From NCBI GenBank assembly GCA_964474885.1, contig CAYYWO010000004.1:1-64000 (forward strand): a DNA stretch of 64,000 nucleotides. Reading direction: 5' to 3'. The stretch is from Candidatus Hadarchaeota archaeon (lineage in GTDB: Archaea; Hadarchaeota; Hadarchaeia; Hadarchaeales; JAWBSP01). Shown piece after piece: positions 4,680 to 7,600 of this stretch. A program made the translations under genes and the position numbers. The notes below the pieces were generated by a model. It was not told the DNA's origin and did not search any database. It was given only the letters and a program-made list of their open reading frames with translations. How positions within the stretch are numbered: the first letter of the stretch is position 1; every line of letters starts with the position of its first letter.

Positions 4680-7600
4680 CGAGGGTCTTCGGGCGATTAG
4701 TACCGGTGGGCTGAACGCCTCGCCCTTTCGGGCTCGGCGCTTACACCCCCGGCCTATCAACGGGGTCTTCTAGCCCCAGCCCTTCCCTCCTGGCCCTTTC
4801 GGGCCAGAAGGTACGCCGCCTGTTTTCGGGGGCCGCTTCGGCCTTAGATGCCTTCAGGCCTTATCGGCTGGCGCGTGGCTACCCGGCGTCGCCCTGTCGG
4901 ACGACCGGTACACCAGAGGCGCCGGCGACCTGTTCCTCTCGTACTAGGGTCACCTTCCCCTCAGGCGGCGGGCACCCCCGAAAGATAGCATCCGACCTGT
5001 CTCACGACGGTCTAAACCCAGCTCACGTTCCCTTTTGATGGGCGAACAACCCCACCCTTGGCCGCTGCTGCACGGCCAGGATAGGAAGAGCCGACAGCGA
5101 GGTAGCAAACGGCGGGGTCGATGGGGACTCTCGCCCGCCACGGCTCTGTTATCCCCGGGGTACCTTTTCTGTCATCCGTGGCCCCCACCAATGGGGACAC
5201 ACGGGTTCGCTAGGCCCGGCTTTCGCCCCTGCGAGCCTTGATGGTGAGCTCGCAGTCAGGCCGGCTTTTCCCCTTGCAGTCTACGGCGGAGTTCTGACCC
5301 GCCTGAGCCGACCTTTGGGCCCCCTGGATATCTTTTCCAGGGGCTGCCGCCCCAGCGAAACTGCCCACCTGCCGTTGTCCCCCCTTTCGGGGGTTAGGGA
5401 CGCAACCCCAGATGGGTGGTGTTCCATTGGCGCCTCCACCAGGCCCGGAGACCTGGATTCATGGGCTCCCACCTACGCTCTGCATCCAGAGCCGCATCCC
5501 AGCGACAGGCTGCAGTAAAGGTCCACGGGGTCTTCGTTTCCCTTCGGGGGTCACCGGCATGTTCGCCGGTAAGTGGGTTCACCGGGCTCCGGGCCGGGAC
5601 AGTGGGGGACTCGTTGATCCCTTCATGCAAGCCGCCAATTAAGCGGCAAGGTATTACGCTACCTTAAGAGGGTTGTAACCCGCCAGGTACCTTGGCACCT
5701 GACGTATAGTTACCCCCGCCCATTGGCGGCGCTTAAGCCGGTTGGACCCGGCTTTCACGTACCGCCTGTAGGCAGGATTCACTAGCCGTACCAATCCTTT
5801 CGGACTAGCGGCTAGCTACGTTTTTATTAAACAGTCGGTCCCCCCTTGTCACTGCGACCCGCGGTCCCACCCCGCTTGCCCTCCCTGGAGGGAGGACTCG
5901 CGGTTAGAGACCACGGGCACCCCTTCTCCCGAGGTTACGGGGCTAATTTGCCGAATTCCCTGGCCCGGTATCACCCGACACGCCTGGGGCTTCTCACCCA
6001 GGGGCACCTGTGTCGGTTCTAGGTACGGTCACCCGGGATCCCATTTCTCCCCTGCCTTTTCACGGGACCCAGGAATCGGGCGAACCCGCCTTGCGGCAGG
6101 CCCATCCCACCTTCACCTGGTTCTCTCCTTTACGGAACTCCCCAGGCTTGAGTGGTTGGGTGGGGCGACGACCCCACTCGCCCTATCCCGAGCCGTCGGC
6201 AGGGGAGCTTGCGTCGCCGCTGGTACCCGGGTGGCTCCGGAATGTTAACCGGATTCCCTTTCGGTGGCTTCTGGTTGAGAGCCACCTTAGGACCGGCTAA
6301 CCCTCGGCTGACGACCATTGCCGAGGAACCCGGGCCCCTTCGGCGGCCGGGATTCTCACCCGGCTTTGCTGTTACTACCGCCAGGATCTGCGATCCGACA
6401 CGGTCCACCGGATCTCACGACCCGGCTTCTACCCGTGCCGGACGCCCCCCTACCGGATCAGGCCTTCCGGCCTGCCCCGGGGTCTCGGTGGCGGGCTTAG
6501 CCCCGTCCATCTTCGGCGCCCTCTCCCTCGGCGGGTCCGCTTTTACGCGTTGTTTAAAGGATGGCTGCTTCTAAGCCTACCTCCCCGCTGTCTAAGGGAG
6601 AGGACCTCCTTTGGATTTCGACACTTAGCCCGCACTTGGGGACCTTAACCCCGGTCTGGGTTGTTCCCCTCTCGGAGCGGGAGCTTTCCCCCCGCACCCC
6701 GTCTCCGGCGGTCTACGGTGCCTGCGGCTTCGGAGTTCGACTGGGAGAGTGAGGGTTTCCCCCCATCAACTCCCAATCGGTGCTCTACACCGCAGGCGAC
6801 CTCGCGCCGGGCCTGACTGCGGCCAGCTTCGGGGGGAACCAGCTATCACCGGGCTTGATGGGTCTTTCGCCACTAGCCCAGGGTCATCCGACCGAATTGC
6901 ACGTCAAGACCGGTTCGGCCCTCCACCCCTCGTATGAGGGGCTTCAGCCTACCCCGGGCTAGATCGCCCGGTTTCGGGTCTTGCCGCCGTGACTCCGGGC
7001 GCTTTCACACCCGGCCCCTCACCTCCAAAATGGAGGCTGCGGGCATCTCGCTTTCGCTTCGGCTTCGGTCACCTTAACCTCGCCACGACGGCAAACTCCC
7101 TGGCCCGTGATTCCAGACGGACGACGCCACCCCGCTCCTCCCCCCTCGGGTTCGGCCTTGCAGCCTCACCCTTCGGGAGGACTCAGCGCTTTCGGGCAGC
7201 GTCCACCTGTCGCCACCCAGTTTCAGGCTCTTTTCACCCCCCTCCCGGGGTGCTTTTCAGCTTTCCCTCGCGGTACTGCGTTCGCTATCGGTCTCGGGAC
7301 GTATTTAGGGTTGGAGGTTGGTGACCCCCAGCTTCCCACGCCAAATCCAAGGCGCGGTACTCAGGATACCTCCCCTCGTATCCTGCACCCTTACGCCTAC
7401 GGGGCTTTCACCCTCTATGGCCCGCCATTCCAGGCGAGTTCGGCTTCGGGTGCGAGGAATTGGGGGAGGTCCTACAACCCCACATCCCCAGTGGGTTTCC
7501 CCACCAGGTTCGGTTTGCCCTGTCCCCCTTTCCCTCGCCGGTACTCAGGGGATCGCGATTGCTTTCTTTTCCTGCCCCTACTAAGATGTTTCCGTTCGGG

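What the first reader, a model, noticed from the sequence alone, without database searches (positions are those of the whole stretch)
5675..5705. Minimal 31-nt BHB intron in the loop of 23S rRNA helix 69
Seen: the conserved GGGGGTAACTAT-AACCCTCTTAAGG is interrupted by ACGTCAGGTGCC-AA-GGTACCTGGCG-GGTTAC. Exon and intron fold into a textbook bulge(ATA)-4bp(AACT/GGTT)-bulge(ACA). Cutting after the 2nd nucleotide of each bulge, the EndA rule, regenerates the exact mature H69 (about E. coli 1915/1916). Established: archaeal rRNA introns are spliced by tRNA splicing endonuclease and are best known from Thermoproteota, often with LAGLIDADG ORFs. This is an ORF-less hairpin intron in an apparently non-crenarchaeal lineage, at the B2a bridge where splicing should be essential. 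It may be a homing-endonuclease intron remnant.
Basis: partly seen in the sequence, partly recalled or inferred. Interest (0 to 1): 0.7.

Follow-up and report, generated by a model that had tools for sequence, protein, structure and literature searches.

The report
Tiny spliced intron in 23S rRNA
The only 23S ribosomal RNA gene of this uncultured archaeon carries a 31-base insert in the tip of helix 69 that folds into the exact shape cut by the archaeal tRNA-splicing enzyme, so it is most likely a very small intron of a known kind at a site not reported before.

Summary
The 23S rRNA gene lies on the minus strand (window 4678-7772). It has 31 extra bases (5705 down to 5675) in the helix 69 (H69) loop. 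They form a canonical bulge-helix-bulge (BHB) motif: a 6-bp outer helix (the H69 stem), a 4-bp central helix, two 3-nt bulges and a 10-bp inner hairpin.

Cutting after the second base of each bulge restores the H69 sequence seen in intron-less relatives, including one of the same genus. The same cut rule gives the normal splice site in 4 of 5 intron-bearing tRNAs predicted in this genome. The genome encodes one splicing endonuclease (EndA) and the ligase RtcB.

A metagenome contig carries a 29-nt intron at the same site, with three compensatory pair changes.

Splicing itself could not be tested, because only assembled contigs were available and none covered the site. No intron with a homing endonuclease gene (HEG) was found at this exact site. 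Relatives carry such introns 5-6 nt away.

Short hairpin BHB introns are already known in Thermoproteales 16S rRNA. This is therefore a new member of a known kind, at a new site and in a small phylum of 66 held genomes. Interest is moderate.

The parts
4678..7772 (-). 23S (LSU) rRNA gene. It is the only copy found in the genome and is the host of the intron.
   Evidence: Rfam RF02540, 2776 bits, model 1-2987. The only other match in G000 is a 46-nt fragment on C52.
5712..5717 (-). 5' strand of the H69 stem (GGGGGU), which serves as the outer helix of the BHB.
   Evidence: Pairs with 5668-5673 in 6 of 6 positions.
5708..5711 (-). H69 loop bases AACU, which form the 5' strand of the central 4-bp helix.
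   Evidence: Pairs with the intron bases GGUU at 5677-5680.
5705..5707 (-). 5' bulge AU|A. The predicted 5' cut lies between 5706 and 5705.
   Evidence: BHB scan. The same rule gives the 37/38 site in 4 of 5 predicted intron-bearing tRNAs of this genome.
5675..5705 (-). The 31-nt intron: 1 bulge base, a 10-bp hairpin with loop CAAG, GGUU, and 2 bulge bases.
   Evidence: Insertion of 32 bases against 1 model position. It is the only indel of 4 nt or more against the G001 23S over gene position 370 to the end, the part held for G001. The sequence is unique in the genome.
5681..5704 (-). Inner hairpin: CGUCAGGUGC / GUACCUGGCG with loop CAAG.
   Evidence: 10 bp. Against the L050 copy, 3 pairs changed on both sides, 1 changed on one side, and none is broken.
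5674..5676 (-). 3' bulge AC|A. The predicted 3' cut lies between 5675 and 5674.
   Evidence: BHB scan.
5668..5673 (-). 3' strand of the H69 stem (ACCCUC), the outer helix of the BHB.
11831..13408 (-). 16S rRNA (11859-13372) enclosed by a canonical BHB processing stem. Predicted cuts fall after 13408 and after 11831. This shows that the same precursor transcript carries another predicted EndA site.
   Evidence: Rfam RF01959. BHB with outer 6 bp, central 4 of 4 and inner 16 bp.
4659..7787 (-). 23S processing stem with a relaxed BHB: central helix 3 of 4, inner helix 23 bp, outer helix 2 bp.
11758..11830 (-). tRNA-Ala(UGC) in the 16S-23S spacer.

Best explanation
The 31 bases are a minimal archaeal bulge-helix-bulge intron.

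In the pre-rRNA the H69 stem stays formed. Four H69 loop bases (AACU) pair with GGUU near the 3' end of the intron, and a 10-bp intron hairpin stacks on top. This presents two 3-nt bulges, 4 bp apart, on opposite strands.

The homotetramer-type splicing endonuclease EndA cuts after the second base of each bulge. RtcB then joins the exons, restoring a normal 7-base H69 loop, and probably closes the intron into a 31-nt circle.

Shown here: the insertion, the motif, its exact register, its presence/absence pattern, covariation with a second copy, and the presence of the enzymes. Inferred: the cutting, the ligation and the circle.

Origin: most likely a mobile or once-mobile hairpin intron of the kind that travels with neighbouring LAGLIDADG introns. 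This part is inference from precedent.
For: 1. Insertion of exactly 31 nt in the H69 loop.
2. Exact hBHBh' motif: outer 6 bp, central 4 bp, inner 10 bp, two 3-nt bulges. It sits on the one register that regenerates the intron-less sequence. The chance rate is about 5e-8 per cell (16 real against 11 reversed-control hits in 2.68e8 cells).
3. The canonical BHB fold is only 2 kcal/mol above the MFE.
4. All 11 uninterrupted H69 loci read (L002-L011, L020), the same-genus G001 included, read GGGGGTAACTATAACCCTC, which is what the cut rule predicts. Against the G001 23S, the 31 nt are the only indel of 4 nt or more from position 370 to the end.
5. An independent metagenome contig, L050, has 23S 80.5% identical to the window and 87% to its nearest relative in the order. 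It has a 29-nt insert at the same site with the same central helix. Across the two copies, 39 of 39 cells are paired and 3 inner-helix pairs changed on both sides. With the 3' partners slid by 1-3 columns, only 33-54% of cells pair and no pair changes on both sides.
6. The same 2-nt/1-nt cut rule gives the canonical 37/38 site in 4 of 5 aragorn-predicted intron tRNAs of this genome: Trp, Tyr, Leu-CAA and Asn. The predicted Pro-CGG intron did not fit.
7. There is one EndA gene (179 aa, with N- and C-terminal domains). RtcB is present and carries an intein.
8. The same operon has a perfect BHB around the 16S rRNA.
9. The 23S gene is otherwise intact, and no second copy was found in the 92%-complete assembly.
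Against: There is no RNA evidence. The four runs laid were all Logan contigs, and no contig in any run covered 5674-5714. The tool warns that conserved rRNA is filtered out, so this gap says nothing either way. For the same reason the insertion is not independently confirmed in DNA reads of this organism.

One X3 contig is identical to the window over 5291-5673. It then continues into an intron-less H69 with a different H68. This could be a k-mer chimera at the conserved stretch, or a real intron-less close strain.

ViennaRNA's MFE prefers a slightly different pairing, with a 6-bp central helix and a 2-nt 3' bulge, over the canonical BHB.

Covariation rests on only two sequences, and 60 of 500 shuffles reach the observed score.

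Only 1 of 66 genomes of the phylum has the intron (28 of 65 in the order hold the region). No other match was real among the GTDB species genomes scanned with that pattern.
Confidence: 0.85

Rival explanations
1. EndA excises the element but the exons are not rejoined. The mature 23S rRNA would then be split in the H69 loop, like bacterial intervening sequences or the helix 98 excision in Pyrococcus.
For: rRNA pieces that are excised without religation exist in archaea. In Pyrococcus furiosus, H98 is removed and the 23S is left circularly permuted (PMC7758197, passages). Nothing in my data shows ligation.
Against: BHB cuts leave ends that RtcB joins, and RtcB is encoded. The H98 excision is described as working by a different, non-BHB mechanism. 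The cut register restores the conserved loop exactly, which would be needless if the loop stayed broken. A nick in the H69 loop at the inter-subunit bridge is expected to be harmful, but that is established knowledge and was not tested here.
Confidence: 0.05
2. The 31 nt stay in the mature rRNA as a lineage-specific extension of H69.
For: The intron stacks coaxially on the H69 stem and would fold as one long hairpin. Archaeal rRNAs do carry expansion segments. One example is the hairpin about 24 nt longer in 16S helix 6 of this genome.
Against: H69 is length-invariant in 14 of 14 relatives with an uninterrupted region and in the Rfam model. The insert buries loop bases AACU in a helix. The exact BHB register, kept in a second copy with compensatory changes while both bulges keep their size, is not expected for a plain expansion segment.
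Confidence: 0.04
3. It is an assembly artefact, or the rDNA copy is non-functional.
For: The genome is a metagenome bin of 60 contigs with 3% contamination. No contig in the four public runs laid covered the insert. The insert length equals a common assembler k-mer size.
Against: The sequence is not a duplication of its flanks and is unique in the genome. It forms a perfect BHB. A 29-nt relative occurs at the same site in an independently assembled metagenome contig. The gene is full length, scores 2776 bits, and sits inside a contig of at least 64 kb, in an operon with an intact 16S and tRNA-Ala.
Confidence: 0.03

Closest known systems
Short (<50 nt) hairpin-forming BHB introns of Thermoproteales 16S rRNA, for example Pog.S1205 (Jay & Inskeep 2015, PMC4496867; passages read)
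   Same: They have no ORF, are under 50 nt, form a single hairpin that keeps the BHB motif, sit in a conserved rRNA site, and lie a few nucleotides (7-8) from a site used by a LAGLIDADG-encoding intron. Here LAGLIDADG introns sit 5 and 6 nt away in relatives.
   Different: The host gene is 23S, not 16S. The site is the H69 loop. The host is a small separate phylum of 66 genomes with a single alpha4-type EndA, not Thermoproteota. No neighbouring HEG intron is present in the same gene copy.
Small ORF-less 23S rRNA introns of Staphylothermus marinus (Kjems & Garrett 1991). I saw this only as a citation and one sentence in PMC3608112. The sizes of about 55 nt are recalled.
   Same: They are ORF-less BHB-type introns in functionally central parts of 23S rRNA. 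The exon-intron pairing reshapes a conserved rRNA hairpin before splicing.
   Different: Those are in Desulfurococcales and at other sites (domains IV and V; positions recalled). They are roughly twice as long.
Desulfurococcus mobilis 23S intron encoding I-DmoI, and similar LAGLIDADG-bearing BHB introns
   Same: The proposed splicing pathway is the same: EndA acts on a BHB core. The 648-nt intron of relative G035 in the H69 loop (L018:799-1446) is of this type. It has central helix GGGG/CCCC, a 14-bp inner helix, and a 157-aa LAGLIDADG_3 ORF.
   Different: The window's intron has no room for an ORF. It lies 5 nt downstream of the G035 site, so it is not simply that intron with its ORF deleted.
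Canonical archaeal tRNA introns (position 37/38)
   Same: The motif and cut rule are identical. This was checked on this genome's own tRNA-Trp, -Tyr, -Leu(CAA) and -Asn.
   Different: The host RNA is 23S rRNA. The outer helix is the H69 stem rather than an anticodon stem.
Archaeal group I introns at LSU/1923 and LSU/1931 (Nawrocki, Jones & Eddy 2018, PMC6125680; passages including Table 1)
   Same: They use the same small stretch of 23S and occur in the same order. G038 has an Rfam-scored group I intron at 1931 (53.6 bits). Ten genomes have 718-861-nt inserts at 1923; the one ORF scanned, from G007, is LAGLIDADG_3.
   Different: Those introns are self-splicing ribozymes of several hundred nt. 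The 31-nt element cannot be a ribozyme of that class, and Rfam finds no group I match in the region.

Membership tests
Archaeal BHB (EndA-dependent) intron | hBHBh' motif: two 3-nt bulges on opposite strands, separated by a 4-bp helix and flanked by helices. | tested here: met
   Outer 6 bp, central 4 of 4, inner 10 bp, bulges AUA and ACA. The canonical fold is -26.0 against an MFE of -28.0 kcal/mol.
Archaeal BHB (EndA-dependent) intron | Cuts at the symmetric bulge positions give a product identical to intron-less homologues. | tested here: met
   The predicted product equals the H69 sequence of G001 and the 10 other uninterrupted loci read. It is the only indel of 4 nt or more against G001 over position 370 to the end. 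The insertion is 32 bases against 1 model position.
Archaeal BHB (EndA-dependent) intron | The host encodes the splicing endonuclease and the RtcB ligase. | tested here: met
   PF01974 with PF02778 in one 179-aa ORF, the single match in the genome. RtcB scores 585 bits and carries an intein.
Archaeal BHB (EndA-dependent) intron | The structure is conserved with covariation among copies. | tested here: met
   Window against L050: 39 of 39 cells paired and 3 pairs changed on both sides, against 0 in the slid controls. There are only two sequences, so the support is modest (60 of 500 shuffles reach the score).
Archaeal BHB (EndA-dependent) intron | The intron is absent from the mature RNA, with an exon junction and/or a circular intron detected. 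| tested here: inconclusive
   Four runs were laid, all as contigs only, and no contig covered the site. The tool filters conserved rRNA.
Hairpin ('HP') rRNA introns as defined for Thermoproteales 16S (PMC4496867) | Under about 50 nt, forming a predictable hairpin that keeps the BHB motif. | tested here: met
   31 nt, with a 10-bp hairpin plus the BHB.
Hairpin ('HP') rRNA introns as defined for Thermoproteales 16S (PMC4496867) | The host is Thermoproteales/Desulfurococcales and the gene is 16S rRNA. | tested here: not met
   The host gene is 23S. The host phylum holds only 66 genomes and has a single alpha-type EndA. It works like an HP intron but lies outside the described set.
Homing-endonuclease intron or its remnant at this site | A longer, HEG-bearing intron at the same insertion site in relatives, or recognisable HEG debris. 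| tested here: not met
   In the order, 0 of 27 other genomes that hold the region have an insertion at 1917/1918. The HEG introns are at 1912/13 (G035) and 1923 (10 genomes). 31 nt leaves no room for debris. Longer same-site introns outside this phylum could not be searched.
Group I intron | A catalytic core recognisable by a covariance model, with a length of hundreds of nt. | tested here: not met
   No RF00028 match in window 5480-5900. The element is 31 nt.

The most novel reading that the evidence does not exclude
The mini-intron may be more than inert debris. It could be a player in a contest between mobile introns for the 27-bp stretch 1912-1938 of 23S rDNA.

In this order the stretch holds five different insertion sites, of both BHB and group I type. 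A 31-bp insert at 1917/1918 lies 5-6 bp from the insertion points of two LAGLIDADG introns.

Either it spreads by co-conversion when a neighbouring endonuclease cuts, as reported for the Pyrobaculum oguniense 1205/1213 pair (PMC4496867). Or it persists because it splits their recognition sites and makes the only rRNA operon immune to invasion.

A further possibility is that splicing inside H69, the inter-subunit bridge, acts as a late licensing step that keeps immature 50S subunits from joining 30S.
Probability: 0.15. Interest if true: 0.6.

Novelty: new member of a known kind. Interest (0 to 1): 0.4.

Why it matters
If spliced as predicted, this is one of the smallest rRNA introns. It sits in the loop of helix 69, a universally conserved element that contacts the small subunit and the tRNAs. 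That would make ribosome function depend on the tRNA-splicing enzymes in an archaeal phylum outside the classic intron-rich Thermoproteota.

It also gives a very compact natural EndA substrate: 50 nt including both exon strands. It further shows that one 27-nt stretch of 23S rDNA in a single order hosts both protein-spliced and self-splicing introns. This bears on the old question of how the two intron types relate and compete.

On the practical side, such inserts break 23S-based probes and alignments, and they can be mis-read as assembly errors.

Tried and rejected
RNA and DNA read test. The look-up of sequencing runs gave one good holder, X1 (share 0.59, hydrothermal vent). All others had a share of about 0.2. 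Read laying on X1, X3, X8 (RNA) and X2 used Logan contigs only. No contig covered 5674-5714. The contigs that bridge the site belong to intron-less relatives: X2 record 12 has 16 differences in 240 nt, and the X1/X3 contigs have a different H68. The tool says conserved stretches are filtered and that a hole proves nothing, so I draw no conclusion for or against splicing or the DNA insertion.

Global scan for other copies. The genome contigs pattern scan returned 16 loci, all bacterial. The script re-found the pattern in 15 of them (L047 gave no row under its regex and was not inspected further). All 15 are spurious: either an upstream GTAACT in H68 or the ends of longer inserts. The scan needs exact flanks and a gap of 14-44, so variants with other flanks (for example a different base after GGTAGC) and longer same-site introns would be missed. 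Many bins also lack rRNA.

Rfam on the long inserts of relatives. There was no group I match for the 1923 insert of G007 or for the G035 H69 intron. I call the 1923 inserts 'group-I-like' only from their ends. The seven read all have an exon ending in U, an intron ending in G, and a guide-like GGGGGUYG that can pair with the exon. I saw no BHB at the comparatively defined boundaries in the visible part of the truncated output.

PDB sequence search with the two LAGLIDADG ORFs gave 0 hits each. I therefore could not tie them to any endonuclease with a known target length, and the immunity idea stays untested. Association is uninformative: both mini-intron alleles lack the 1923 intron, but so do 17 of 28 genomes.

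A remnant of the G035 intron was considered. The inner-helix bases look weakly alike by eye, but the site differs by 5 nt and the central helix is different, so I make no claim.

Two other candidates were set aside. A BHB-like hit inside the 23S at gene positions 2962-3032 covers sequence present in all relatives, so I took it as chance. The 16S helix-6 extension is not a canonical BHB by eye.

Taxonomy. No tool gave a name. 'Hadarchaeota' is my guess.

Literature. Searches found no paper describing an intron in the H69 loop of an archaeal 23S rRNA. In one search the top-listed paper, the only one of the 15 shown with a 'helix 69' occurrence, was an unrelated tRNA acetylation study. The supplementary tables of PMC6125680 may list BHB intron positions that I could not see. 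The older subscription papers (Kjems & Garrett 1991; the I-PogI paper) were not read.

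Full report
WHAT IS THERE. The window carries one rRNA operon on the minus strand. The 16S is at 11859-13372, tRNA-Ala(UGC) at 11758-11830, and the 23S at 4678-7772. The 23S matches the whole archaeal LSU model (2776 bits). In the loop of helix 69 (H69) the Rfam alignment shows 32 bases where the model has one.

On the minus strand the text is GGGGGTAACTAT, then 31 bases (window 5705 down to 5675), then AACCCTCTTAAGG.

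STRUCTURE. I scored the canonical motif explicitly: outer helix, 4-bp central helix, a 3-nt bulge on each strand, and an inner helix. The only strong hit in the 23S is this one.
- The outer helix is GGGGGU/ACCCUC (6 bp), which is the H69 stem itself.
- The central helix is AACU/GGUU.
- The bulges are AU|A and AC|A.
- The inner helix is 10 bp with loop CAAG.

The next-best hit has outer 4 and inner 8 bp, at gene positions 2962-3032. It covers sequence present in all relatives, so I take it as chance.

Genome-wide, on both strands, 2.68e8 (position, length) cells gave 16 motifs at outer >=6 and inner >=8. The reversed-sequence control, which keeps helices but not the BHB handedness, gave 11. The bare motif is therefore not rare in 2.4 Mb. 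What is improbable, at about 5e-8 per cell, is that it falls exactly on the cell that comparative alignment defines as the insertion.

The canonical fold costs 2 kcal/mol more than ViennaRNA's MFE (-26.0 against -28.0). The MFE slides two pairs, which is usual for bulged motifs.

THE CUT RULE, CHECKED IN THIS GENOME. Aragorn predicts intron-bearing tRNAs. I examined five of them. With the same scoring, tRNA-Trp, -Tyr, -Leu(CAA) and -Asn each show the motif, with the cut after the second bulge base falling between positions 37 and 38. The predicted Pro-CGG intron did not fit.

Applied to H69, the rule removes exactly the 31 bases. It leaves GGGGGUAACUAUAACCCUC, the sequence of all 11 uninterrupted relatives' loci read.

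COMPARATIVE EVIDENCE. The order equals the class here, with 65 genomes, and the phylum has 66. Of the 65, 28 hold the H69 region.
- The same-genus genome G001 lacks the 31 bases precisely.
- Between the two 23S genes (92.7% identity over the alignment), the 31 bases are the only indel of 4 nt or more from position 370 to the end.
- Thirteen further genomes are uninterrupted across 1906-1940.
- Only G000 matches a pattern for a 10-56-nt insert in the H69 loop (1 of 66).
- A scan of the GTDB species genomes returned 16 loci, all bacterial. The 15 re-inspected were false.

A scan of JGI metagenome contigs returned one contig, L050. It carries a 29-nt insert at the same site with the same central helix GGUU. 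Its bulges are AU|G and AU|A, and its hairpin is 9 bp. Its 23S is 80.5% identical to the window's and 87% to the nearest genome of the order, so it belongs to a different family-level lineage.

Aligned column by column, 39 of 39 cells pair. Three inner-helix pairs differ on both sides, one differs on one side, and none is broken. When the 3' partners are slid by 1-3 columns, pairing drops to 33-54% with no compensatory change.

With two sequences this is modest statistics (60 of 500 shuffles reach the score). It is nonetheless an independent assembly showing the same kind of element, which argues against an artefact. The shared pairs, including a U-G wobble, suggest common descent.

MACHINERY. 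The genome has one match to the endonuclease catalytic domain. It lies in a 179-aa ORF that also has the N-terminal domain, next to the tryptophanyl-tRNA synthetase gene. This is the one-subunit (homotetramer-type) architecture, which according to the literature needs a strict BHB (PMC5829648, abstract and passages). The H69 motif is strict.

RtcB is present as a 961-aa ORF interrupted by an intein with a LAGLIDADG domain.

The same precursor transcript has a perfect BHB around the 16S (outer 6, inner 16 bp). It has a relaxed one around the 23S. EndA is therefore expected to act on this transcript anyway.

WHAT COULD NOT BE SHOWN. Splicing could not be shown. The tool states that conserved rRNA stretches are filtered out.

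One X3 contig is identical to the window for 383 nt downstream of the site. It then continues into an intron-less H69 with a foreign H68. It may be a k-mer chimera or a close intron-less strain, and I cannot tell which.

THE NEIGHBOURHOOD IS AN INTRON HOT SPOT. Positions are in recalled E. coli numbering. They are anchored on the Rfam-confirmed group I intron of G038 (53.6 bits) at the site Nawrocki et al. call LSU/1931. The order uses five sites within 27 nt:

| Site | Element | Genomes | Calls |
|---|---|---|---|
| 1912/13 | 648-nt intron with a BHB core (GGGG/CCCC, 14-bp inner helix, almost no outer helix) and a 157-aa LAGLIDADG_3 ORF | G035 | 32, 44, 47 |
| 1917/18 | mini-intron (31 nt and 29 nt) | G000 and contig L050 | 5, 26 |
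| 1923 | 718-861-nt inserts; the seven read have group-I-like ends, and the G007 ORF (248 aa) is LAGLIDADG_3; no Rfam match in the one tested | 10 genomes, plus one probable cut by a contig end | 10, 31, 35, 47 |
| 1931 | group I intron | G038 | 33 |
| about 1938 | 34-nt relaxed BHB insert | G035 | read by eye |

In total, 14 of 28 genomes carry at least one of these.

The published precedent that fits better is the hairpin intron class of Thermoproteales 16S rRNA. These are under 50 nt and keep the BHB. One of them (Pog.S1205) is carried along by co-conversion when the endonuclease of the intron 8 nt away cuts at its site (PMC4496867, passages).

COMPARISON AND NOVELTY. In mechanism this is an ordinary archaeal BHB intron. 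In form it matches the known hairpin rRNA introns.

What I did not find in print (searches; supplements closed) is an intron in the H69 loop, or one in this phylum's 23S.

[quoted passage not shown] (PMC6125680, passages).

I therefore rate it a new member of a known kind. Interest is moderate, mostly for its location, its size, and the mixed intron hot spot around it.

LINEAGE. The lineage name (my guess is Hadarchaeota) is inferred, not shown.

VERDICT.
- Observation: confirmed.
- Interpretation: supported, apart from the untested splicing and the unsupported remnant idea.
- Confidence that it is an EndA/RtcB-spliced intron: 0.85.

Noticed in passing
L018:799-1446 (G035) and L018:871-1344: A relative carries a 648-nt intron in the H69 loop, 5 nt upstream of the window's site. 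It has a BHB core (GGGG/CCCC central helix, 14-bp inner helix, only 1 bp of outer helix) and a 157-aa LAGLIDADG_3 ORF. No Rfam RNA family matches it.
   Followed up: partly
L018:1473-1506 (G035): A second small insert of 34 nt sits near E. coli position 1938, flanked by a 6-nt repeat GCGTAA. By eye it forms a relaxed BHB: central helix GCGU/GCGU 4 of 4, an inner helix with one U-U mismatch, and no outer helix. My strict scan did not list it.
   Followed up: partly
L012:1689-2537 (G007) and nine other genomes of the order: Inserts of 718-861 nt lie at LSU/1923, right after the H69 stem. In the seven loci read the exon ends in U, the intron ends in G, and a guide-like GGGGGUYG can pair with the exon. 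The G007 insert encodes a 248-aa LAGLIDADG_3 protein. Rfam's group I model does not score it, so its class is inferred.
   Followed up: partly
L022:118-487 (G038): A group I intron scored by Rfam (RF00028, 53.6 bits against a cut-off of 50) at LSU/1931 in a member of the same order.
   Followed up: yes
G022 (L006) and G007 (L012), at window 23S gene position 2674: Further inserts of about 220 and 770 nt lie near E. coli position 2500, a site where Nawrocki et al. list group I introns in Hadesarchaea contigs.
   Followed up: no
G000 contig C3, L052:454-3339 (minus strand): The RtcB ligase gene is interrupted by an intein carrying a LAGLIDADG domain. The ORF is 961 aa, and the RtcB match is split into positions 1-54 and 49-426.
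   Followed up: yes
window 13408 / 11831 and 7787 / 4659 (minus strand): There is a perfect BHB in the 16S processing stem (outer 6, central 4 of 4, inner 16 bp). Its 3' cut falls directly at the 5' end of tRNA-Ala. The 23S stem has a relaxed BHB (central 3 of 4, inner 23 bp, outer 2 bp).
   Followed up: yes
window about 13280-13304 (16S helix 6 region): The 16S is 1514 nt against a model of 1478. About 24 extra bases relative to G001 and G008 extend a hairpin in the first variable region. This is not a canonical BHB by eye.
   Followed up: partly
window 4741-4811 (23S gene positions 2962-3032): A BHB-like geometry (outer 4, inner 8 bp, 70 nt) lies in the helix 98 region. The enclosed sequence is present in all relatives, so it is probably chance. 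H98 excision in Pyrococcus is described as not BHB-mediated.
   Followed up: partly
G000 C8:20271, C3:19026, C53:1311, C9:21301 and others: The genome-wide scan gave 15 other strong BHB-like hits (outer >=6, inner >=8). Some are palindromes seen on both strands. The number is close to the reversed control (16 against 11), so most are probably chance. None was examined.
   Followed up: no
G000 C5:40015-40125: Aragorn predicts a tRNA-Pro(CGG) with a 36-nt intron. It does not show a canonical BHB in my scan, whereas a second intron-less tRNA-Pro(CGG) exists on C3.
   Followed up: no
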